Source: Escherichia phage JLBYU10. Taken from it: DNA of 50,987 bases. Below the pieces are notes generated by a model. The model searched no databases. It had not been told where the DNA came from and worked only from the letters and a program-made list of their open reading frames with translations. A program made the position numbers and the translations under genes. Location of the stretch: sequence record OK272486.1. The stretch is one strand, 5' to 3'. Shown one piece after another: positions 3,549 to 50,987 of the stretch; positions within the stretch are counted from its first letter, which is position 1, and each line of letters opens with the position of its first letter.

Positions 3549-3967
3549 TGGCTATAACTGATAAAGGAGATTATCTTGAGTTTTACGAAAGAGATCCAAC
3601 CGACACGAGAAAGGAAGTTAATCACCAGATAGATAGCTTTCAGTGGTTGACTTATGCTCATCCTTATTTGCTAGCGTGGCATACGGTAAACGAGAATGAG
3701 AAGTCGAAAGTAACGGCGATGATTGATCAGCAGTCCGGCTTGGTTAAGGGGGTAAGCGATTTCATCATCCTGATTGGTTCAAACGGAAAATACCCCTTTG
3801 CAGCGATTGAGATCAAACGAGTGAATAAATCAGGCAAGGGGAAAGCATCACCAGTCAGCGATGAACAAAAGGCTTTTTTGCGTCGCGTTCGCAGCTTAGG
3901 AGGATTCGCTGCGGTCGCCTACGGATTTAATCAGTTTAAGTTAGCTATTGAATACATGCTTAAATAG
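3548..3967 (+). CDS. VRR-NUC domain nuclease
   Basis: ATGA start-stop overlap with helicase; SDFIIL...AIEIKR...DEQKAF...GG.AAVAYG pattern typical of VRR-NUC. Confidence 0.6.
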   Translation: MAITDKGDYLEFYERDPTDTRKEVNHQIDSFQWLTYAHPYLLAWHTVNENEKSKVTAMIDQQSGLVKGVSDFIILIGSNGKYPFAAIEIKRVNKSGKGKASPVSDEQKAFLRRVRSLGGFAAVAYGFNQFKLAIEYMLK

Positions 3968-4007
3968 CACTTTTTGTTAAAACTGGCGCGATGGATTGCG
4001 CCATAAT
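3964..4007 (+). promoter_or_regulatory. Motif-type promoter-like unit: ATAGCACTTTTTGTTAAAAC, hairpin in 22-bp spacer, CATAAT
   Basis: Motif overlaps TAG stop of VRR-NUC gene; GGCGC..GCGCC stem in spacer; -10-like hexamer at fixed distance. Confidence 0.5.
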
Positions 4008-4777: not shown

Positions 4778-5035
4778 ATGAAAAAAGAGAGAAGCGTTTA
4801 TTTAAATGAAACTGGCGAGTGGTTGTTATTTCGCGCTATGGTGTGCGATGCACTTGATAAAAACCCTAACGTGAAAAAGATGATTGATTGCGATCCGTGG
4901 GAATTTTCAAGCGCATTAGATATGAGCTTTGATGAGACAAGAAAACTCCCTCTTGAAAAATGGCACGAACAAATCAGAAATGATATGCAAGAGTTTGTAG
5001 ATTCGTGGAATTTTCAGAACGGAATGATCCACTAA
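4778..5035 (+). CDS. hypothetical protein
   Basis: ORF track; ACGGAG RBS; tightly packed. Confidence 0.45.
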   Translation: MKKERSVYLNETGEWLLFRAMVCDALDKNPNVKKMIDCDPWEFSSALDMSFDETRKLPLEKWHEQIRNDMQEFVDSWNFQNGMIH

Positions 5036-5078
5036 TGGCACTTTTTGTTAAAACGCCCGGCATTTTGTCGGGCATAAT
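5036..5078 (+). promoter_or_regulatory. Motif-type promoter-like unit: TGGCACTTTTTGTTAAAAC, hairpin GCCCGGC..CGGGC, CATAAT
   Basis: Motif immediately after TAA stop; 22-bp spacer with stem-loop; -10-like hexamer. Confidence 0.5.
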
Positions 5079-8216: not shown

Positions 8217-8253
8217 AATTTTTCCTTTTTGGTTGTTTCGTTTCGATGAAACA

Positions 8254-8297
8254 AATATACCCGACACTAGGCCGGGCGTTTTAACAAAAAATGCTAT
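8254..8297 (-). promoter_or_regulatory. Motif-type promoter-like unit (minus strand): ATAGCATTTTTTGTTAAAAC, 22-bp spacer, TATATT
   Basis: Reverse-complement motif overlapping TAG stop of upstream minus-strand ORF. Confidence 0.45.
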
Positions 8298-8488
8298 TCA
8301 ATACGCTTTAACGTAACCAGTAATACACCATCATCATTGCATAAAACATGTTCAGTGGTGCTAAAAGCGCGCATATCTGAATAAAGCAGCGTAAGTAACG
8401 CATGAATAAAATCCTCATGTGAGATTGAATTTACGGCGCAGTGCTTCAAGATCTTGTCTATTAGCTTTTGCCTGGAACAATTCATCAT
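8294..8488 (-). CDS. hypothetical protein (overlaps upstream gene by ~74 bp)
   Basis: ORF track; GGGGAG RBS; stop embedded in motif like other real genes. Confidence 0.3.
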   Translation of the reverse strand: MMNCSRQKLIDKILKHCAVNSISHEDFIHALLTLLYSDMRAFSTTEHVLCNDDGVLLVTLKRIE

Positions 8489-11089: not shown

Positions 11090-11133
11090 ATTATGCCAGG
11101 TTTTTACACCTGGCTTTTAACAAAAAGTGCTAT
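11090..11133 (-). promoter_or_regulatory. Motif-type promoter-like unit (minus): ATAGCACTTTTTGTTAAAAG, hairpin CCAGG..CCTGG, CATAAT
   Basis: Motif overlaps TAG stop of methyltransferase-like gene; fixed 22-bp spacer. Confidence 0.5.
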
Positions 11134-15752: not shown

Positions 15753-15899
15753 TTGGTTGCAGGGGAGATAGTGAAACCCTCCCCTCTTGCCTCACTTTTC
15801 CGCCTGGCTGTCAGTGGTTGTTATGTTCCGTTCCCGCCTGTTCTTTTGTTGACCTTCCGCAAAATACGATAACAAAAAATAACAAACAATACCTATATA

Positions 15900-16165
15900 A
15901 TACATTGAAAAATAAGGATTATTTATTTATATGTATCTATATATTCTCTTTTGTTATCTTGGTTATTGTGGTATTTGGTGGGGGTATATAGTTTTTGTGT
16001 ATCTGTATGTGTGTATGGGTATGTAGGGGCATATATATCTATATGGCACTTTCCGCGAGAAAACTTCGATAACAGGCAATGATAACATTGATTTATAAGG
16101 AAAAATAACGCCAATATTGTTATTGTGCCACCATGTAAAATTGATAAAACACGCGGGAACAAGAA
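15900..16165. repeat. TG/TA-rich non-coding element, copy 1 (homologous to 45000..45240)
   Basis: Shares TTATTTATTTAT-TGTAT...CTTTTGTTATCT...TTGTGGT..TTTGGT and GGGAACAAGAAAAA blocks with copy 2. Confidence 0.6.
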
Positions 16166-16695: not shown

Positions 16696-16964
16696 AAAAG
16701 GCGTTAATCGGCGTTTTGGTGGCAATGGCATTCCTGACCGGATGCGAAGAAGATGGCGCGCATGTTGGCAATGTGCAGATGGCTAACCCTGGCGATGACT
16801 ACAGCGTAAGGGAGCTATTCACCGCCGATGGTTGCACTGTTTACCGATTCTATGACGGTCGCACTGTTTACTTCACCAACTGCAAGGGAACGACTAGCTG
16901 GGAAGTGTCGAAAAGCAACGGCAAAGGCACGAAAACAGAATACATGACCGTTGAGACAAAATAG
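16692..16964 (+). CDS. lipoprotein (possible superinfection-exclusion type)
   Basis: Signal peptide with lipobox FLTGC; ATGA overlap with upstream gene. Confidence 0.5.
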   Translation: MKKALIGVLVAMAFLTGCEEDGAHVGNVQMANPGDDYSVRELFTADGCTVYRFYDGRTVYFTNCKGTTSWEVSKSNGKGTKTEYMTVETK

Positions 16965-17003
16965 CACTTTTTGTTAAAACTCAAATGTGGGGCCAGGTAT
17001 AAT
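16961..17003 (+). promoter_or_regulatory. Motif-type promoter-like unit: ATAGCACTTTTTGTTAAAAC, hairpin GGGCC..GGCCC, TATAAT
   Basis: Motif overlaps TAG stop of lipoprotein gene; TATAAT in hairpin loop 21 bp after TTGTTA. Confidence 0.5.
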
Positions 17004-17033: not shown

Positions 17034-17255
17034 ATGTACATTAAAAAGAAGATGAAATGCGTTTCCGTTAACTATGCTTGCTCCGGCATGTTCAAGCCTG
17101 GCGAAATCTATACGGCGCAAAAACTGAAATCATCAACCGGATCTTTTTACGTGAGCAATAGTAAGGGGCATCGCATGTTCCTGAACGGCGGCGAAGGCAC
17201 TAAGGTTATGGCACACGCTATGGTAATGGCTGAATTTGAGGAAGTGAAACAATGA
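17034..17255 (+). CDS. small hypothetical protein, paralog A
   Basis: ORF 16971..17255 trimmed to Met with AAGGAGA RBS; shares FxLNGxEGTK..A...V.AEFExV with next ORF. Confidence 0.45.
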   Translation: MYIKKKMKCVSVNYACSGMFKPGEIYTAQKLKSSTGSFYVSNSKGHRMFLNGGEGTKVMAHAMVMAEFEEVKQ

Positions 17256-17485
17256 TCATTGAAAACAATTTTCTTTGCGTTAAGAGCAATAGACCATTCT
17301 TCACGCCTGGCAAGGTGTACCAGGGCAAGAAGGACAAAAGAGATGGTCACTCTTATCATGTTTACTGCAACAACGGATACAAGTTTTACCTTAACGGCGA
17401 GAATGGAACTAAGATCGTTGCGTTTGAAAACGTAGTTGCAGAGTTCGAGCAGGTTACAGACGCTGAATTTGAGGAAGTGCAATAA
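17252..17485 (+). CDS. small hypothetical protein, paralog B
   Basis: ORF track; tandem paralog of previous gene. Confidence 0.45.
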   Translation: MIIENNFLCVKSNRPFFTPGKVYQGKKDKRDGHSYHVYCNNGYKFYLNGENGTKIVAFENVVAEFEQVTDAEFEEVQ

Positions 17486-17667
17486 TGGATGATTTTACTC
17501 GGCTTGTTCTAGGCTGGATTGTTTTTCTTTTTGCGTGGCTTATCCACTGTGCGAGGCATAAATTCAGACTGAGCTATGATAATTCATTCGTTATGACCTG
17601 CTTCAGTATTCCAGGATGGATCATTTTGCTTGTGGCTACTGCTGAATACATCCATAAAACATTTTAA
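17485..17667 (+). CDS. small membrane protein
   Basis: ORF track; two hydrophobic segments. Confidence 0.4.
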   Translation: MDDFTRLVLGWIVFLFAWLIHCARHKFRLSYDNSFVMTCFSIPGWIILLVATAEYIHKTF

Positions 17668-20696: not shown

Positions 20697-20987
20697 ATGG
20701 CAAACAAAACTTACCGCAAACTACTGGTTAACGCTTTTGAAAACATCGCGCAGTGTAACAAGTGGAACGACTCTAAACACTCGCCAGTCACAATGAAGCG
20801 CGCCGGATTCAAAAATGCTCGTTCATGGGCGCGAGCTTTCGCAGCTTGCTATATGCCGGATGGCGGACTAGGGGCGATGAACGATTTTTTGATCAATATG
20901 ATAGAGGAAGCGGCGCGAGAGGATCGACCGCTGACACAGCGAGATTTTGACGACTTCGCGCGCGATGAGCTTTACTATCTGAGCTAA
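20697..20987 (+). CDS. hypothetical protein
   Basis: ORF track. Confidence 0.45.
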   Translation: MANKTYRKLLVNAFENIAQCNKWNDSKHSPVTMKRAGFKNARSWARAFAACYMPDGGLGAMNDFLINMIEEAAREDRPLTQRDFDDFARDELYYLS

Positions 20988-21030
20988 TAGCACTTTTTGT
21001 TAAAACTTCCGCAAGGGCATTTGGTAAAGT
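20987..21030 (+). promoter_or_regulatory. Motif-type promoter-like unit: ATAGCACTTTTTGTTAAAAC, hairpin AAGGGCA..TGCCCTT, TAAAGT
   Basis: Motif abuts TAA stop; -10-like hexamer inside hairpin, 22-bp spacer. Confidence 0.45.
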
Positions 21031-29829: not shown

Positions 29830-29848
29830 CGTTTAACAAAAAGTGCTA
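29830..29848 (-). repeat. motif copy in inverted orientation (GTTTAACAAAAAGTGCTAT) upstream of capsid gene
   Basis: Reverse complement of motif inside a rightward operon, next to a terminator. Confidence 0.45.
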
Positions 29849-29853
29849 TCATC

Positions 29854-30923: not shown

Positions 30924-31190
30924 ATGAGCAAAACTTTAAAACTTAAAGTAACTGGCGTTTGCATGATTATTATGGACGGTAAGCGTTATCATCCTGGTGA
31001 TGAAATTGAAATTGAATCAGATCGCATTAATGATTCCGCAATTGAATACCTGATCGCTCGCGGCGATGTGGAAGTTAAAGACAATTCCGAAATTAACGAG
31101 CAAATCAAGGAGAAAGCGGAGAAGAAGCGCAAAAAAGATCCTACCGAGGGCAAGAGCCGCAAAGAGCTAGAGGATGGCGGCGAATATTAA
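30924..31190 (+). CDS. hypothetical head protein
   Basis: ORF track. Confidence 0.4.
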
Positions 31191-31195
31191 TAATT

Positions 31196-31214
31196 GGGGC
31201 GCTTATGCGCCCCT
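31196..31214 (+). terminator. hairpin GGGGCGC-TTAT-GCGCCCC (weak terminator/attenuator), part of repeated hairpin-RBS cassette
   Basis: Near-identical cassette at 47395..47435. Confidence 0.35.
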
Positions 31215-31236
31215 TGTCATATCTGGAGAAAACAAA

Positions 31237-31656
31237 ATGGTAGATGAATTTTATACAGACGCTGAAATCGTTCAGCAAATCGTAAAGTTGGCCCCACCAA
31301 TGCAGCAGGTTGATCCCGATTTAATTGTGGCATGGATTGAGCTTGCTAAAGAATTTGTTTGCAAAAAACGGTTTAAAAACTCATACCCTAAAGCGGTTGC
31401 GCTTTACACTCTTCACCTTATGACCTTAGACGGGGCAATGAAACAGGAAGGTGAAAGCGTAGAAAGCTATTCCCGCCGCGTTGCATCGTTCACTCTGACT
31501 GGTGAGTTTAGTCAGACGTTTGATCGAATTTCTTCCGATACAAGCGGAAAGCAGATCCGACAAACGCCGTGGGGCAAAATGTACGAAGTGTTAAACCGTA
31601 AGCACGGTGGCGGCTTTGGCCTTGTGACTGGATTGCGCCGGAGATGCTGCCGATGA
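31237..31656 (+). CDS. head-tail connector/adaptor protein (putative)
   Basis: ORF 31174..31656 trimmed to Met with GGAGAAAACAAA RBS; position. Confidence 0.4.
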
Positions 31657-33516: not shown

Positions 33517-33543
33517 AACAAGGGGCGTTGCGCCCCTTTTTTC
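33517..33543 (+). terminator. rho-independent terminator after major tail gene
   Basis: GGGGCG-TTG-CGCCCC stem followed by T-run. Confidence 0.6.
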
Positions 33544-33581
33544 ATTCCTGTAAAATCAATCTATCAAATAAATTAATTCCA

Positions 33582-33601
33582 CTTTTAACAAAAAGTGCTA
33601 T
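33582..33601 (-). repeat. motif copy in inverted orientation (CTTTTAACAAAAAGTGCTAT) abutting RBS of chaperone gene
   Basis: Reverse complement of motif followed immediately by AAGGAG and ATG at 33616. Confidence 0.45.
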
Positions 33602-39456: not shown

Positions 39457-39500
39457 ATAGCACAATATGTTAAAGCGAAAACGGATTTTCGCTTTACAAT
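39457..39500 (+). promoter_or_regulatory. Motif-type promoter-like unit (ATAGCACAATATGTTAAAG), hairpin GCGAAAA..TTTTCGC, TACAAT
   Basis: Motif adjacent to TAA stop of I-like gene; precedes HNH gene inserted in tail module. Confidence 0.45.
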
Positions 39501-39517
39501 TAATTAAGGAGGTGATC

Positions 39518-39994
39518 ATGTGGCGTGATATTTTTTATTATAATGACGGTAAGTTATTTTGGGCTGTAGACGTAGGAAGAAGGATAAAGAAAGGAAGTGA
39601 GGCAGGAAGCGTAAGCAAAAGCAAGAAGAGTGGAGAAAGGGTTAGAATATCAATTGATGGAGAAAGATACTACAGGAGCAGGATAGTTTGGGAAATTCAT
39701 AATGGAGAAATACCGCATGGAATGCAAGTTGATCACATAGATCACAACACAATGAACGACAATATTTCAAACTTAAGACTTGTTAGAATGAGTGTTAACA
39801 ACAAGAATAAGTCGCTTTACAGGAACAGCAAGACGGGAATTACTGGGGTAAACTTTAGTCGCGGAAAATGGATTGCAAGAGCAAAGATTGATGGTGTTAG
39901 GCATGAATTTTACTTTGATTCATTTCAGGATGCGGCAGAAAAGAGGATAGAGATTGAAGTTTTAAACAAATTCCACATAAACCACGGAAAGTAG
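39518..39994 (+). CDS. HNH homing endonuclease (paralog of 11806..12333)
   Basis: ORF 39467..39994 trimmed to Met with AAGGAGG RBS; VDHIDHNTMNDN HNH signature; shared C-terminal ...HGK. Confidence 0.65.
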   Translation: MWRDIFYYNDGKLFWAVDVGRRIKKGSEAGSVSKSKKSGERVRISIDGERYYRSRIVWEIHNGEIPHGMQVDHIDHNTMNDNISNLRLVRMSVNNKNKSLYRNSKTGITGVNFSRGKWIARAKIDGVRHEFYFDSFQDAAEKRIEIEVLNKFHINHGK

Positions 39995-44915: not shown

Positions 44916-44999
44916 TTGTTATTTTTTGTTTTCCGGTGCTATCGGATTTAAGACGGCGTAAATTTAGCGCAAATTTTAGCCAACATAAGAACAATAAAT

Positions 45000-45240
45000 A
45001 ATCAATAAAATATGTATATACATATAAAATCAATAGTTTATTTATTTATGTATGTGTATTTGTTTTTTTCTTGTTATCTGTGTTTCTTGTGGTTTTGGTT
45101 GTTTGTGGTGATTTTTCTTTCTGAGTATCTGTATGTGCCATCATTCATGTGTATGTATATAATCCGGCGTATCTGAGAGAACAAGGGAACAAGAAAAATA
45201 ACACATATTAATCATTAACTTACGCGTCAAATTTGTTTTA
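45000..45240. repeat. TG/TA-rich non-coding element, copy 2 (homologous to 15900..16165)
   Basis: Shares TTTATTTATTTATGTATGTGTATTTGT...CTTGTTATCTGTGTTTCTTGTGGTTTTGGT and GGGAACAAGAAAAA blocks with copy 1. Confidence 0.6.
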
Positions 45241-46474: not shown

Positions 46475-46732
46475 ATGACAGACAAAGACAATGCCACATT
46501 GTTGCATTTAGAACGATTCATTGATCGAGTAACCATTGCAATGAAAGAATTTATTAAGCCGATGAACATTAAAGAGTCGGAAGAAATGAAGACTTACATC
46601 AAGGACGTGGTTGCATCCATTGACAACGTTATCCTTGTTGCAACGATGAGCAAGGGAAACAAAGAGCGCGAGAGGTTGGTTGTTGAATCAACAGAAGAAT
46701 TTATTAAAATGCTTGAAAGCGAGAAGGAATAA
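46475..46732 (+). CDS. hypothetical protein
   Basis: ORF track; CAGGAGAA RBS. Confidence 0.45.
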   Translation: MTDKDNATLLHLERFIDRVTIAMKEFIKPMNIKESEEMKTYIKDVVASIDNVILVATMSKGNKERERLVVESTEEFIKMLESEKE

Positions 46733-47389
<657 letters not shown>

Positions 47390-47432
47390 TAAACGGGGCG
47401 CTTGCGCCCCTTTTGTCATAGGAGAAAACAAA

Positions 47433-47885
47433 ATGCACGTTATTACAGGTGAGATTCGAAAAGAGCCAAAAGTAAAGCAAATGCCTAACGGCAGCACGCT
47501 ATATGTTATTGAGCTTTCCGAGCGATACAAAGACCGAGAGGGAAATTGGCAGTATACAAACTATGTGTTTTTCTTTAACGCGAAAACAGACGGCCTGAAT
47601 GGTTGGTATGCCGAGGCGTTCCAGGTAGGCAAGGTTGTTTCTGTTTCCTGCGATACCTTGCGAGTAGAAACGCGAGAATACAACGGAAAGATTTACAGCA
47701 CCGTGCAGCCTGGCGGATTTGCAAACTTGCTATTTAGCCAGAGAGGTGAAAGCCAGCAACAATATCAGCAGCGAACGCAAGGAGGCTGGGGGCAACCACA
47801 ACAGCAACAGCAACAAAATACTCAACAGCAGCCGCAGCAAAGCAATCAGCCTCCGATTGACTTTGACGACGATATACCATTCTGA
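47433..47885 (+). CDS. ssb: single-stranded DNA-binding protein
   Basis: ORF 47382..47885 trimmed to Met with GGAGAAAACAAA RBS; Gly/Gln-rich linker and acidic tail DFDDDIPF. Confidence 0.75.
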   Translation: MHVITGEIRKEPKVKQMPNGSTLYVIELSERYKDREGNWQYTNYVFFFNAKTDGLNGWYAEAFQVGKVVSVSCDTLRVETREYNGKIYSTVQPGGFANLLFSQRGESQQQYQQRTQGGWGQPQQQQQQNTQQQPQQSNQPPIDFDDDIPF

Positions 47886-47887
47886 TA

Positions 47888-47919
47888 ACAAAAAGCCCCG
47901 CATATGCGGGGCTTTTTTT
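47888..47919. terminator. bidirectional rho-independent terminator
   Basis: GCCCCGCAT-ATGCGGGGC stem flanked by A-run and T-run between convergent genes. Confidence 0.6.
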
Positions 47920-48627: not shown

Positions 48628-48906
48628 TTAAGCCCATTCTCTAATCGGCTGATCTAACTCAACCACGTAGCCGTTAAAAATTACGGCATCAAACTTATCA
48701 TCAATGATTCGCACATTGACGAAATAGCCGTCGTTCTTTCGCGCAATCTCATCGCCATCGTCAGATCGTGCAATTACTGTGTAAGTATTGCCGATTACAT
48801 CGAGCAGGATTGCATCCTGAATGGATTCGTTTTCGTTCCATTCAATTTCTTCCAGAAAGGCGGAAAACTCCGCCTTGTCTAAAAATTTCAGTGTTAAATC
48901 ACGCAT
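48628..48906 (-). CDS. hypothetical protein (tail-fibre accessory?)
   Basis: ORF 48628..48951 trimmed to ATG overlapping stop of tail-fibre gene. Confidence 0.4.
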   Translation of the reverse strand: MRDLTLKFLDKAEFSAFLEEIEWNENESIQDAILLDVIGNTYTVIARSDDGDEIARKNDGYFVNVRIIDDKFDAVIFNGYVVELDQPIREWA

Positions 48907-50882
48907 TATACAATTTCCCCCAATTGATGATCTGTTAGTGCCTTGTGCCATATACGGAAGTTTCTAACGTGCCCGAAAAGATGGCGTTCGCCCGTAGTTG
49001 TTTGTCCGCCAATCCTTATAGTAGCCGTTGATTTTATGTATCTCCATTCCGTTTTTGTTTCGCTTGATATTCTGGCATTACTTACACAGCAATTATTGTA
49101 ATCACTCTTTACTCTCATTCCCATGATCATCTTTTTTAGTTTTGCATTCTCGTAAACCCTTCTTTTTGATCCACCTATATCGCAATAAGGGAATCCATCA
49201 TTATCTCCCTCGGCAGATCCGAAAGCAAGAATAATTGCCGCACCAGATTGATGACCTACAGTATCAAAAACACGAGGCGCAGCATTTGGCGTTATACTCC
49301 AGTTTTTATTAGCTTCCACAAGAACTGTAAACGGCAAATTGTAAAGGTTGTTTTTTATTGGCACTGTAACCATATCGCTTGCCCTTGTTACTGGATTTTC
49401 TTCTGTAATTATGAAAGAAGAGGCACAAGATCCTCCCTCAACTTGTGGAGTTGCAATATAAATGTAATCATCCGCGCCAGTGCCCACTCCTTTTGCCGGG
49501 GCATACTGAACCATTCCACCTATCATATTTTCTGTATCAAGTGCCTTAATTGTCGCCTCAAAAAAGATCCATTTGCTTGCTTCATCTTTAACAGCCCTTG
49601 CAGTAATACGATTTGCAGCGACGCCAGTTTTTTCAATTGATAAATCTGTCAGATTTACGTAAGCATCACCCAAAAATGCATAAGCAGATCCATCGTAGTT
49701 TTCAAATCGTAATCGGCATCTTAAATTTGGAGTCCCACTTTGCGCCCTGCATGATATGGTTACATACTTTTCATTTCCTGTTACATCAAAACCTCTACTG
49801 CCGGAAACGGTTACTATGTTAATCTCTGAAATTTGCCCTACCATTTCTGGTTTTAATGTAAATTTTGCGTACTGGAATCCGAAATTATCCACACCTGATC
49901 TATCTAAGATCATATTTGATGACTTGTTCCATTTTGAAGGATTGACGCTATTTATAAGAAGGTTTGTTCTTTGCCCCTCAATGAGCAGACCATCCTTTTC
50001 AAATCTAGGTTCATCAATAGCAGCATTAGTAAGCACCCCAGACTTATTAATGTAAGTAGCGGTTGATGCGCGTTTAAACTTAACAATCTTGTCACCTGGC
50101 ATCGTGATCTCATCGTCACCTATAACAATCTTTTTATATGACGGAGAGAATCCGGTGATCATATCCAGGGAATCATTAAACGGTATCCACACGTCCGGCA
50201 ACGGTTGCAATAAATCTTTGTAAGGTTCTGCGGCCTGCTTTGCGTATTCCTCCGCTTGATCTCGCGCACTTTCAGCTCCTGCCTTTGCAGTGTTCGCAGC
50301 GTCACGCGCGGATTCAGCGCCTTTTCTTGCAGTTTCAGCGCCAGTCTTTGCAGTGTTTGCAGCGTCGCGCGCGGATTCAGCGGCAGCCTTTGCAGTGTCA
50401 GCACCTTTCTTGCTATTCTCTGCATTTGTTGCGCTTGTCTTTGCGTTATTCTCGCTAGTTTTAGCTGCCTTCTGGCTTGCTGCGGCTGCGTCAGCATTTG
50501 TCTTTACGTCTTCCTGGATCTTCTGTAGCTTATCCCAATCAAAATCCTTGATGATCTCAATAAATCCAGCAAGCTCCGACTCCTTTCCCTGGTAATAACG
50601 CAACGTTTCCGCTACGTCTTGCGCAAGACCGTCAACCGTTAACGAGTCATGAAGCAAGATCAGGTAATTTGTCTTCTGGACTACCGCGCCGCCAGTAGTA
50701 ATTGCGCGAATGCTTGTATCGCTAATCACTTCCGTAATCACAGCAGCTTGCAAAGGTTGAGCAAGAAAGAAAATAGTTGCACCTGGGCGAATCAAGGTTA
50801 ATTGCTCACGCCATTTTGTACCGTAACCAGTTACATAACCTTGCGCGTCCATAGACGCTTGGCCTTGTCTGTAAATCGCCAT
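48906..50882 (-). CDS. side tail fibre protein
   Basis: ORF 48906..50906 trimmed to ATG with AGGAGGA RBS; Ala-rich repeats AAESARDAANTAKTGAETARKGAESARDAANTAKAGAESARD typical of fibre shafts. Confidence 0.55.
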   Translation of the reverse strand: MAIYRQGQASMDAQGYVTGYGTKWREQLTLIRPGATIFFLAQPLQAAVITEVISDTSIRAITTGGAVVQKTNYLILLHDSLTVDGLAQDVAETLRYYQGKESELAGFIEIIKDFDWDKLQKIQEDVKTNADAAAASQKAAKTSENNAKTSATNAENSKKGADTAKAAAESARDAANTAKTGAETARKGAESARDAANTAKAGAESARDQAEEYAKQAAEPYKDLLQPLPDVWIPFNDSLDMITGFSPSYKKIVIGDDEITMPGDKIVKFKRASTATYINKSGVLTNAAIDEPRFEKDGLLIEGQRTNLLINSVNPSKWNKSSNMILDRSGVDNFGFQYAKFTLKPEMVGQISEINIVTVSGSRGFDVTGNEKYVTISCRAQSGTPNLRCRLRFENYDGSAYAFLGDAYVNLTDLSIEKTGVAANRITARAVKDEASKWIFFEATIKALDTENMIGGMVQYAPAKGVGTGADDYIYIATPQVEGGSCASSFIITEENPVTRASDMVTVPIKNNLYNLPFTVLVEANKNWSITPNAAPRVFDTVGHQSGAAIILAFGSAEGDNDGFPYCDIGGSKRRVYENAKLKKMIMGMRVKSDYNNCCVSNARISSETKTEWRYIKSTATIRIGGQTTTGERHLFGHVRNFRIWHKALTDHQLGEIV

Positions 50883-50899
50883 TTGTAAAATCCTCCTAA

Positions 50900-50920
50900 A
50901 TAGCACTTTTTGCTAATGAC
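50900..50920 (+). repeat. motif copy (ATAGCACTTTTTGCTAATGAC) upstream of, and inverted relative to, the tail-fibre gene
   Basis: No -10 at canonical spacing on plus strand; adjacent to RBS of minus-strand gene. Confidence 0.4.
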
Positions 50921-50947
50921 AATGCAGATAATAGCATTTTCAAGTGC

Positions 50948-50975
50948 AAAAAAAAACCCCGCATAAGCGGGGCAA
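50948..50975 (-). terminator. rho-independent terminator for leftward transcription
   Basis: CCCCGCATAAGCGGGG stem with T9 on minus strand; would terminate primase operon if genome is circularly permuted. Confidence 0.5.
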
Positions 50976-50987
50976 TACTAGCGGAGT

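What the first reader, a model, noticed from the sequence alone, without database searches (positions are those of the whole stretch)
31196..31239. Duplicated hairpin-plus-RBS cassette and matching hairpins flanking the tail-fibre module
GGGGCGCTTATGCGCCCCTTGTCATATCTGGAGAAAACAAAATG (31196-31239, before the adaptor gene) and GGGGCGCTTGCGCCCCTTTTGTCATAGGAGAAAACAAAATG (47395-47435, before ssb) are ~90 percent identical over ~42 bp, and the terminator at 33521-33537 uses the same stem. Separately, the hairpins at 47895-47912 (GCCCCGCATATGCGGGGC) and 50957-50972 (CCCCGCATAAGCGGGG) bracket the leftward tail-fibre module. Repeated intergenic cassettes of this kind can act as translational-coupling or attenuation elements and as module boundaries for recombination.
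Basis: seen in the sequence. Interest (0 to 1): 0.45.

Follow-up and report, generated by a model that had tools for sequence, protein, structure and literature searches.

The report
Ordinary terminator hairpins in T1-like phage
The repeated hairpins are the usual transcription-terminator stem-loops that divide a T1-like coliphage genome into expression units; two of them are near-identical in this genus, but they are not a mobile or recombining cassette, so the finding is ordinary.

Summary
Every sequence is at the stated coordinates. The A (31188-31239) and B (47387-47435) cassettes match at 45 of 47 aligned bases plus three small indels (self-BLAST E=2.6e-7).

The window is a complete Warwickvirus genome (T1-like, Drexlerviridae). 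All five hairpins sit at junctions that carry a hairpin across the family, with compensatory stem changes. The TLS phage paper already lists the orthologues of four as predicted rho-independent terminators (T36B, T42, T54/T55A, T56).

"Hairpin, T-run, SD, ATG" is the generic junction design here, with at least 7 copies. A and B have no promoter after them and weak or variable U-tracts, so they must be leaky.

The A-B identity is fixed across the genus, absent from sister clades, and not currently homogenised. It looks like one old patch transfer, or convergence.

Translational coupling is not supported: the gaps are 43-46 nt, each with its own free SD. The recombination-boundary idea mostly fails. 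Fibre-module swaps break just after the ssb terminator on one side, but inside the fibre gene, not at the 50957 hairpin, on the other. A and B are not breakpoints. The cassette occurs nowhere else in IMG/VR.

The parts
31188..31193 (+). Tandem stop codons TAATAA ending the 88-aa gene (30924-31190). The stop lies 5 nt before hairpin A.
   Evidence: The geometry is the same as at site B.
31196..31213 (+). Hairpin A: 7-bp all-GC stem GGGGCGC/GCGCCCC with loop UUAU.
   Evidence: Centroid fold -16.8 kcal/mol. Positionally conserved in 17 distinct family sequences, 98.3% of cells paired, 3 of 7 pairs with compensatory change, 0/500 shuffles reach the covariation score. Orthologue of TLS terminator T36B.
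31214..31239 (+). Tail of cassette A: degenerate U-tract UUGUCAUAUCU, SD GGAG (31225-31228), 8-nt A-rich spacer, and the ATG of the head-tail adaptor gene (31237).
   Evidence: The scan does not call A a + strand terminator because only 4 of the first 8 bases are T. TTTGTCATATCTGGAG is conserved at this junction in many Tempevirinae-type relatives, but not in the T1/TLS clade.
33520..33544 (+). Strong terminator T after the major tail protein gene: AAGGGGCG-UUG-CGCCCCUU followed by a T-run.
   Evidence: A T-run is present in 23 of 23 distinct family sequences. Orthologue of TLS T42.
33549..33556 (+). Extended -10-like box TGTAAAAT just after terminator T, the candidate promoter for the tape-measure chaperone and tape-measure genes.
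   Evidence: Conserved as TGTAnAAT in nearly all relatives. Promoter function is inferred, not tested.
47387..47392 (+). Tandem stops TAATAA ending erf (46736-47389), 5 nt before hairpin B.
47395..47410 (+). Hairpin B: 6-bp GC stem GGGGCG/CGCCCC with loop CUUG.
   Evidence: Centroid fold -12.6 kcal/mol. A GGGGCG-type hairpin is present at the erf|ssb junction in all 25 distinct family sequences. Only 8 of 25 have a T-run, and several have GNRA or UUCG loops. TLS Table S1 lists no terminator here.
47411..47435 (+). Tail of cassette B: UUUUGUCAUA, SD GGAG (47421-47424), spacer AAAACAAA, and the ATG of ssb (47433).
   Evidence: (flagged as terminator-like on the + strand). The GTCATA and GGAGAAAACAAAATG state occurs only in the Warwickvirus clade.
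47890..47917 (.). Bidirectional terminator between convergent ssb (+) and the lateral-fibre operon (-): A5-GCCCCGC-AUAU-GCGGGGC-T7.
   Evidence: Fold -22.3 (+) and -21.9 (-) kcal/mol, z about -5.9 on both strands. Positionally conserved with completely different stems in other clades: 5 of 8 pairs compensatory, 0/500 shuffles. Orthologue of TLS T54/T55A. It is the left junction of fibre-module replacement.
50948..50973 (-). Terminator of the leftward regulator-primase operon (genes at 1463 to 2, continuing across the circular junction): GCCCCGC-UUAU-GCGGGGU followed by U9.
   Evidence: The stem CCCCGC/GCGGGG plus T7-9 is conserved across the family. Orthologue of TLS T56. Homology to relatives runs through it, so it is not a breakpoint.
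50928..50936 (-). Extended -10-like box TGCTATTAT, the candidate promoter of the lateral tail-fibre operon. The fibre gene's ATG is at 50882.
   Evidence: Conserved as TGCTATAAT or TGCTATTAT in relatives. Promoter function is inferred.

Best explanation
The five elements are the ordinary intergenic terminator-type RNA hairpins of a T1-like phage that uses host RNA polymerase. They come in two classes.

(1) Unit boundaries. These are a GC hairpin plus a long U-run, followed by a promoter or a convergent gene. Examples are 33520 (after the abundant major tail protein), 47890 (bidirectional, between ssb and the fibre operon) and 50957 on the minus strand (end of the regulator-primase operon, just before the fibre promoter).

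(2) Compact internal 'hairpin, short U-run, SD, ATG' junctions with no promoter behind them. A and B belong here. A sits after the capsid and 88-aa gene block, B between erf and ssb. Essential genes downstream (adaptor through major tail protein; ssb) have no other evident promoter, so A and B must be read through most of the time. Most likely they act as weak attenuators that step transcript abundance down. They probably also act as exonuclease-blocking stem-loops that stabilise the upstream message. The downstream gene is translated independently from its own exposed strong SD.

The near-identity of A and B is a genus-level historical accident, either one short patch transfer or convergence on the same optimum. 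It is not a functional 'cassette family'.

Shown here: positions, structure conservation and covariation, orthology to published predicted terminators, lineage distribution, breakpoints. Inferred: actual termination efficiency, mRNA stabilisation, origin of the similarity.
For: - The window is a Warwickvirus (Drexlerviridae), 97-98% identical to JLBYU07 and tunus.
- Hairpins at A, T, B, the ssb 3' end and the primase 3' end are positionally conserved in 30-45 related loci.
- Covariation: A is 98.3% paired with 8 double-change cells against 2.1 in shuffles (0/500). The ssb 3' hairpin is 92.9% paired with 23 against 8.9 (0/500).
- TLS Table S1 lists the orthologues as rho-independent terminators T36B, T42, T54/T55A and T56. 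The TLS paper cites T1's late region as terminator-flanked 'transcriptons'.
- At least 7 junctions in the window share the hairpin, T-run, SD, ATG design.
- T-run present: T 23/23, A 9/18, B 8/25 distinct sequences.
- The SD is unpaired in the centroid folds.
- A and B sequences are fixed in 10 Warwickvirus genomes. Variants at A (JK16, tunus/XY3/SLUR29, Poky/PeterMerian) are never mirrored at B.
- Sister clades have a different B tail, TTTTTTACAGGAGAATGAATAATG.
Against: - No transcript 3'-end data exist for any Drexlerviridae phage in the searchable literature, so termination is predicted, not measured.
- A fails the scan's U-tract criterion on the + strand.
- B lacks a U-tract in two-thirds of lineages. 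For B in particular, the conserved function may not be termination at all.
- The A-B match (E=2.6e-7) is too good for simple convergence. The proposed patch transfer is not directly demonstrable.
Confidence: 0.8

Rival explanations
1. PeSL-like recombination linkers. The repeated hairpin-RBS cassettes are short homology patches. The phage's own exo/Erf recombination system would use them to shuffle gene modules, as described for promoter-stem-loop cassettes in T4-type phages.
For: - The PeSL precedent covers stop-codon-to-ATG cassettes with GGGG...CCCC stems.
- The window's extra 85-aa ORF (46475-46732) is flanked by direct repeats of the RBS-ATG region, GAGAAnGA..AGAAATGA.
- The left junction of fibre-module replacement is exactly at the T-run of the ssb terminator in Poky (47918) and at 47892-47918 in more than 20 distant loci.
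- The HNH gene insertion at 39467-39994 abuts a terminator.
Against: - A and B have the same flanking genes in every genome examined.
- The identity step nearest A in L004 is about 230 nt inside the adaptor gene.
- The right fibre junction is inside the fibre gene at about 50567-50590, and homology crosses the 50957 hairpin.
- The cassette pattern occurs in IMG/VR only at orthologous A or B junctions, plus 2 unrelated chance hits.
- There are only two copies and neither contains a promoter.
- A crossover between A and B would delete 16 kb of essential tail genes.
- Variants at A are not copied to B.
- Junctions at gene ends are expected with or without hairpins.
Confidence: 0.1
2. Pure convergence or chance. 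A and B are unrelated hairpins that look alike only because GC-rich stems, U-runs and A-rich strong RBSs are all constrained.
For: - The design is generic.
- The exact string GGAGAAAACAAAATG also occurs at the chaperone junction of L012 and L018.
- GGGGCG-type arms are used at A, T and B across the family.
- Other RBS regions in the window are similarly alike, for example 17252/17485 with score 22.
Against: - Self-BLAST E=2.6e-7. The pair score of 33 against 22 or less is an outlier.
- B's GTCATA is a derived state confined to Warwickvirus. It matches what is ancestral at A, while sister and outgroup B tails read ..ACAGGAG...
- Both sites share TAATAA and the same 5-nt stop-to-hairpin spacing.
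Confidence: 0.25
3. B is not primarily a terminator. It would be an RNA element specific to ssb expression: a 5' stabilising stem-loop of a processed or separately initiated ssb message, or a translational operator comparable in logic to gene 32 autoregulation in T4.
For: - A GGGGCG hairpin is always present 4-15 nt before the ssb SD. 17 of 25 distinct sequences lack a U-run, and several have GNRA (GAAA, GCAA, GTAA) or UUCG loops.
- TLS authors did not list a terminator there.
- A promoter-like TTGACA-18-TAAAAT (11 of 12) lies at 47334-47363, 32 nt upstream of B.
Against: - There is no experimental evidence.
- About 0.7 such 11-of-12 promoter matches are expected per genome by chance (my estimate), and its -35 is not conserved in the T1/TLS clade.
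- The hairpin is only 6 bp, with no further conserved structure, and Rfam has no match.
- In the window's own clade B does have a U4 run and passes the terminator scan.
Confidence: 0.15

Closest known systems
Predicted rho-independent terminators of T1-like phages (TLS T36B, T42, T54/T55A, T56; T1 'transcriptons')
   Same: Same genome positions: after the small gene following the capsid gene, after the major tail protein, after ssb, and after primase. Same stem types (GGGCGC, GGGGCG, CCCCGC). All are intergenic and co-directional.
   Different: In the window's clade site A has lost most of its U-run (UUGUCAU against T6 in TLS). Site B is not listed as a terminator in TLS, where it has no U-run. 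The A-B near-identity through the RBS is specific to Warwickvirus and is not mentioned in the TLS paper.
PeSL mobile regulatory cassettes of T4-type phages (RB49/phi1; PMC2839356)
   Same: Intergenic cassettes running from a stop codon to the next ATG. They contain a GGGG...CCCC stem-loop that terminates or attenuates, plus an SD, and are repeated within a genome.
   Different: PeSLs contain a strong early promoter, occur in dozens of copies in hyperplastic regions, and sit at indel and replacement junctions. A and B have no promoter, are a single pair in conserved core regions, and are not breakpoints. The window's 21-nt-repeat promoters with stem-loops resemble PeSLs more closely than A or B do.
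Leaky internal terminators after highly expressed structural genes, such as T7 T-phi after the major capsid gene (from my own knowledge, not tested here)
   Same: A hairpin placed right after the capsid-gene block (A) or the major tail gene (T), with essential lower-copy genes downstream that depend on read-through or a fresh promoter.
   Different: T7 uses its own RNA polymerase and T-phi has been characterised experimentally. Here everything is predicted, and the host polymerase is presumed.

Membership tests
Intrinsic (rho-independent) terminator | Stable GC-rich stem-loop in the transcript | tested here: met
   All five fold as single hairpins, from -12.6 to -22.3 kcal/mol. Structure is conserved with compensatory changes.
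Intrinsic (rho-independent) terminator | U-rich tract immediately 3' of the stem | tested here: inconclusive
   Met for T (33520), B (47395, + strand) and 50957 (- strand, U9). Met for 47890 on both strands, although the scan misses it because the T-run is absorbed into the 12-bp stem. Not met for A on the + strand, where only UU adjoins the stem and 4 of 8 bases are T. Across the family: T 23/23, A 9/18, B 8/25.
Intrinsic (rho-independent) terminator | Intergenic, just downstream of a stop codon, co-directional with the upstream gene | tested here: met
   The stop-to-stem distance is 3-11 nt at all sites.
Intrinsic (rho-independent) terminator | RNA 3' ends generated at the site in vivo or in vitro | not testable with these tools
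   No transcript mapping for Drexlerviridae was found in the paper library.
T1/TLS transcripton terminators (orthology) | Same junction and homologous hairpin as a published TLS terminator | tested here: met
   L034/L081 is the 49,902-bp TLS-length genome. Its A, T, ssb 3' and primase 3' hairpins match the Table S1 entries T36B, T42, T54/T55A and T56. There is no entry for the erf|ssb junction.
PeSL-type mobile regulatory cassette | Contains a sigma-70-like promoter | tested here: not met
   There is no promoter-like site within either cassette. TGTCATATC is a poor extended -10 (my reading of the sequence).
PeSL-type mobile regulatory cassette | Many copies, found at variable junctions and at indel or replacement boundaries between close relatives | tested here: not met
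   Two copies only. The IMG/VR scan finds the pattern only at orthologous junctions. The neighbours are the same in all genomes. The L004 identity step is inside the adaptor gene.
PeSL-type mobile regulatory cassette | Recombination products (mini-circles, chimeric cassettes) between copies | not testable with these tools
   This needs inverse PCR on infected cells.
Translational coupling junction | Stop and start overlapping or within a few nt, with downstream initiation dependent on upstream translation (weak or occluded SD) | tested here: not met
   The gaps are 46 and 43 nt. A strong GGAG lies 8 nt before the ATG and is unpaired in the centroid structures.
Regulated attenuator or riboswitch | Alternative terminator and antiterminator structures, or a known RNA family | tested here: not met
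   Only one hairpin is predicted. There are no Rfam matches anywhere in the window.

The most novel reading that the evidence does not exclude
The compact hairpin-RBS junctions of T1-like phages are occasionally copied between unlinked sites by the phage's own Exo/Erf recombination system. This would be short-patch gene conversion, and the Warwickvirus A-to-B identity would be a fossil of it. In addition, the erf|ssb hairpin, which is conserved without a U-run and often has GNRA or UUCG loops, would be an RNA stabiliser or operator controlling ssb rather than a terminator.
Probability: 0.1. Interest if true: 0.4.

Novelty: already known. Interest (0 to 1): 0.12.

Why it matters
It matters little beyond annotation.

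- It confirms that this Warwickvirus keeps the terminator-punctuated layout described for T1 and TLS.
- It shows which hairpins are true unit boundaries (followed by a promoter) and which are leaky internal ones.
- It shows that lateral-fibre swapping uses the ssb terminator or gene end on one side and the conserved N-terminal anchor of the fibre gene on the other. That is useful for anyone engineering host range in these phages.
- It corrects over-extended start codons for the adaptor and ssb genes in some GenBank relatives.

Tried and rejected
- **Rfam and tRNA scans.** Rfam at gathering thresholds found no family in the window. ARAGORN found no tRNA or tmRNA.
- **Fixed-gap tail pattern.** A search allowing 3 mismatches found only A, because B differs by an indel. 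It was uninformative.
- **Generic promoter and terminator scans.** Counts were not enriched over shuffles (28, 28 and 23 promoter-like sites against about 27-33 expected; 22, 22 and 17 terminator-like against 17-19). Only individual strong hits were used.
- **IMG/VR scan for the cassette pattern.** Six contigs matched. Four are orthologous junctions and two are unrelated chance matches. The mobile-element idea was rejected.
- **Alignment of site B hairpins.** MAFFT with RNAalifold failed because an outlier shifted the alignment. It was replaced by a hairpin-anchored tabulation.
- **First ssb query.** It was one base out of frame and was corrected.
- **Cassettes as coding N-terminal extensions.** JLBYU07 and JLBYU16 annotate them this way. 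Rejected, because the intergenic length differs by non-multiples of 3 among close relatives (A: 46, 44, 47 nt; B: 43, 41 nt).
- **The 88-aa gene as a module swapped at its two flanking hairpins.** Its low identity in L004 (64% aa) fits a fast-evolving gene, 41-64% identical across the family. The sharp identity step is inside the adaptor gene.
- **Transcriptomics.** A literature search for Drexlerviridae transcript mapping found nothing.

Full report
**Observation.** There are 45 identities, 2 mismatches and 7 gap columns in three indels. E is 2.6e-7, the fourth-best self-hit in the genome. The stem pattern GGGGCGC-N1-8-GCGCCCC occurs twice, against none expected. The terminator at 33520-33538 shares the GGGGCG/CGCCCC arm, but its match to site B is marginal (E=0.1). 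The hairpins at 47895-47912 and 50957-50972 differ at one of 16 core bases. Their pair score (14) is only just above other hairpin pairs in the same genome (13, 13, 12, 12), so that resemblance is not clearly more than chance among GC-rich stems.

**What the window is.** It is a complete, circularly permuted genome of a T1-like siphophage (Drexlerviridae, Tempevirinae, genus Warwickvirus). It is 97-98% identical to phages JLBYU07 and tunus and collinear with JLBYU07. Position 50987 continues into position 1, as the alignment with phage Poky shows.

The five sites are:
- **Site A** lies between an 88-aa gene of unknown function (30924-31190), which follows the major capsid gene, and the head-tail adaptor or virion structural gene (31237-31656).
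- **Site T** (33520) follows the major tail protein gene and precedes the tape-measure chaperone.
- **Site B** lies between erf (46736-47389) and ssb (47433-47885).
- **The 47890-47917 hairpin** lies between convergent ssb and the leftward lateral-fibre genes.
- **The 50957 hairpin**, read on the minus strand, follows the leftward regulator-primase operon and precedes the lateral fibre gene, whose ATG is at 50882.

**Generic design.** The window contains 33 GC-rich hairpins. At least seven late-region junctions share one compact layout of stop codon, GC hairpin, T-run, SD and ATG: 25237, 28977, 29855, 30879, 31196 (A), 34249 and 47395 (B). A second class has a hairpin with a long T-run followed by an extended -10-like box: 23040, 33520, 37328, 39999 and 50957 (-). 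A and B belong to the first class, with no promoter-like element behind them. Genes downstream of A include the abundant major tail protein, so A must be read through. That step is an inference.

**Comparative evidence.** I fetched 44 IMG/VR loci anchored on a tail gene and 32 anchored on the regulator gene, plus GenBank slices.

A hairpin is present at each of the five junctions throughout the family. Structure, rather than sequence, is what is kept:
- Site A: 98.3% of cells paired, compensatory changes at 3 of 7 pairs, 0 of 500 shuffles reaching the covariation score.
- ssb 3' hairpin: 92.9% paired, compensatory changes at 5 of 8 pairs, 0 of 500 shuffles. The stems differ completely between clades (GGGGC, GGAGCC, GCCCCC, CCCCGC), but the A-run, GC stem, T-run layout of a bidirectional terminator is kept.

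The U-run after the stem is universal at T (23 of 23 distinct sequences), variable at A (9 of 18) and a minority at B (8 of 25). At B many lineages have GNRA or UUCG loops followed directly by the ssb SD.

**Literature.** The 2024 re-annotation of phage TLS lists 21 predicted rho-independent terminators, all intergenic. It recalls that T1's late region was described as 'transcriptons' flanked by such terminators. Its Table S1 entries T36B, T42, T54/T55A and T56 are the orthologues of site A, site T, the ssb 3' hairpin and the primase 3' hairpin. None is listed at the erf|ssb junction. No transcript mapping of any Drexlerviridae phage was found, so all of this remains prediction.

**Origin of the A-B similarity.** Both sequences are fixed in ten Warwickvirus genomes. 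Variants at A are never mirrored at B: AAAGCAAA in JK16, a 2-nt shorter spacer in tunus, XY3 and SLUR29, CCCTTTGTCAC in Poky and PeterMerian, and a stem mismatch in SLUR29. There is therefore no ongoing homogenisation.

In the sister clade (L005-L009) and in outgroups, the B tail reads ..TTTTTTACAGGAGAATGAATAATG or lacks a T-run altogether. The motif TTTGTCATATCTGGAG is widespread at A. The A-like state of B is thus derived and confined to one genus. A single short patch transfer from A to B in the genus ancestor fits best, but convergence cannot be excluded. The string GGAGAAAACAAAATG also occurs at the chaperone junction of two other phages, and other RBS regions in the window are comparably alike.

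A scan of IMG/VR for the hairpin-plus-GTCATA pattern found only orthologous A or B junctions and two unrelated chance hits. The cassette is not mobile.

**Recombination boundaries.** For the lateral-fibre module:
- Distant relatives lose homology at 47892-47918 and regain it at about 50580-50590. The close relative Poky breaks at 47918 and 50567.
- The left junction is therefore at the end of ssb and its terminator.
- The right junction lies about 100 codons inside the fibre gene, at the end of its conserved N-terminal part. Homology runs straight across the 50957 hairpin.
- Other close relatives break inside the fibre gene as well (48443, 48937, 49469).

Near A, the identity profile against L004 steps from about 85% to about 99% at 31440-31470, inside the adaptor gene.

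Two window-specific insertions give the linker idea some general colour. One is an HNH endonuclease gene (39467-39994) placed between a stop codon and a terminator. The other is an 85-aa ORF (46475-46732) flanked by direct repeats of the RBS-ATG region. Neither involves A or B.

**Mechanism.**
- Translational coupling is not supported. The gaps are 46 and 43 nt, and the strong SD is unpaired in the centroid folds.
- No alternative structures or Rfam families are present.
- The best reading is that T, 47890 and 50957 (-) are efficient unit-boundary terminators.
- A and B are leaky internal hairpins that lower downstream transcript levels or stabilise the upstream message.
- In both A and B the stop codon lies 5 nt before the stem, so a terminating ribosome would cover the 5' arm. 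From general knowledge of ribosome-terminator interference, this could make termination depend on upstream translation. This was not tested.
- For B, a non-terminator RNA role in ssb expression remains possible.

**Verdict.** They are orthologues of already published predicted terminators in a well-known phage family. The 'duplicated cassette' is a genus-specific sequence coincidence or an old patch transfer between two ordinary junctions. Interest is low.

Noticed in passing
window, about 19 intergenic sites, e.g. 3964-3982, 5035-5053, 11115-11133(-), 16961-16979, 20987-21005: The dominant repeat of the genome is the 21-nt element aaATAGCACnnnTTGnTAAAA, with 22 matches against 3.0 expected. 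It is already described in TLS, T1 and Rtp, and its function is unknown (PMC11447400). Here about 14 of 16 co-directional copies are followed after 18-19 nt by a -10-like TAnnnT hexamer, and the start codon lies 74-86 nt from the repeat start. In 9 copies the spacer forms a GC stem-loop of -11 to -17 kcal/mol. The element looks like the upstream half of a phage-specific promoter with a PeSL-like stem-loop. The best self-hit of the genome (5034-5095 against 8237-8298, 87%, E=6.5e-13) is such a cassette.
   Followed up: partly
window 29831-29849, 33583-33601, 50900-50918: Three copies of the 21-nt repeat are inverted relative to the adjacent late genes (major capsid, tape-measure chaperone, lateral fibre). 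They lie between a promoter-like box or hairpin and the SD. This orientation is conserved in many relatives. TLS Table S1 lists the first one's orthologue as DR7 'neg' inside a plus-strand region, although the text says all repeats point in the direction of transcription. It may be an operator-like use of the same site in late leaders.
   Followed up: partly
window 39467-39994: An HNH homing-endonuclease gene (phrog_99, E=4e-50) is present in the window and absent from all close relatives examined. It is inserted between the stop codon of the tail assembly gene and the terminator before the central fibre (J-like) gene. The terminator stem carries a compensatory change relative to JLBYU07: CCCGC/GCGGG becomes CCAGC/GCTGG.
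   Followed up: partly
window 46475-46732: An 85-aa ORF between the exonuclease and erf genes is present in the window and absent from L052-L054 and L002-L003. It is flanked by direct repeats of the RBS-ATG region, GGAGAATGAGAAATGA and GAGAAGGAATAAGAAATGA. The indel was apparently made by recombination between ribosome-binding regions. Its only PHROG hit is labelled 'tape measure', which is doubtful.
   Followed up: partly
window 31174-31236 and 47382-47432: Some GenBank relatives (JLBYU07, JLBYU16) start the adaptor and ssb genes upstream of the hairpins, at the equivalents of 31174 and 47382. Intergenic lengths differ by non-multiples of three among close relatives, and strong SD-ATG starts lie at 31237 and 47433. 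Those annotations therefore look over-extended.
   Followed up: yes
window 47334-47363: A near-consensus sigma-70 promoter-like site, TTGACA-18-TAAAAT (11 of 12), lies inside the 3' end of erf, 32 nt upstream of hairpin B. If active, B would be a leader hairpin of an ssb transcript. The -35 is not conserved in the T1/TLS clade.
   Followed up: no
window 50266-50391: A tandem 63-bp (21-codon) repeat, 81% identical, lies in the N-terminal third of the lateral tail-fibre gene.
   Followed up: no
window 15868-15985 and 44990-45099: Two AT-rich non-coding stretches at divergent-transcription regions resemble each other: 116 columns, 76% identity, E about 1e-5, with TTATTTATTTATATGTATCT-type motifs. 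They may be regulatory or origin-like regions.
   Followed up: no
window 17229-17254 and 17462-17487: A near-identical 26-nt gene end and RBS, GCTGAATTTGAGGAAGTGnAAnAATG, precedes two consecutive small genes. It is the most similar RBS-region pair in the genome (score 22). This suggests a small tandem gene duplication.
   Followed up: no
window 48906-50906 (-): The mechanical ORF list starts the lateral fibre gene at a GTG at 50906. The SD (GGAGG, 50896-50892) and the conserved ATGGCnATTTA start place the real start at 50882.
   Followed up: yes
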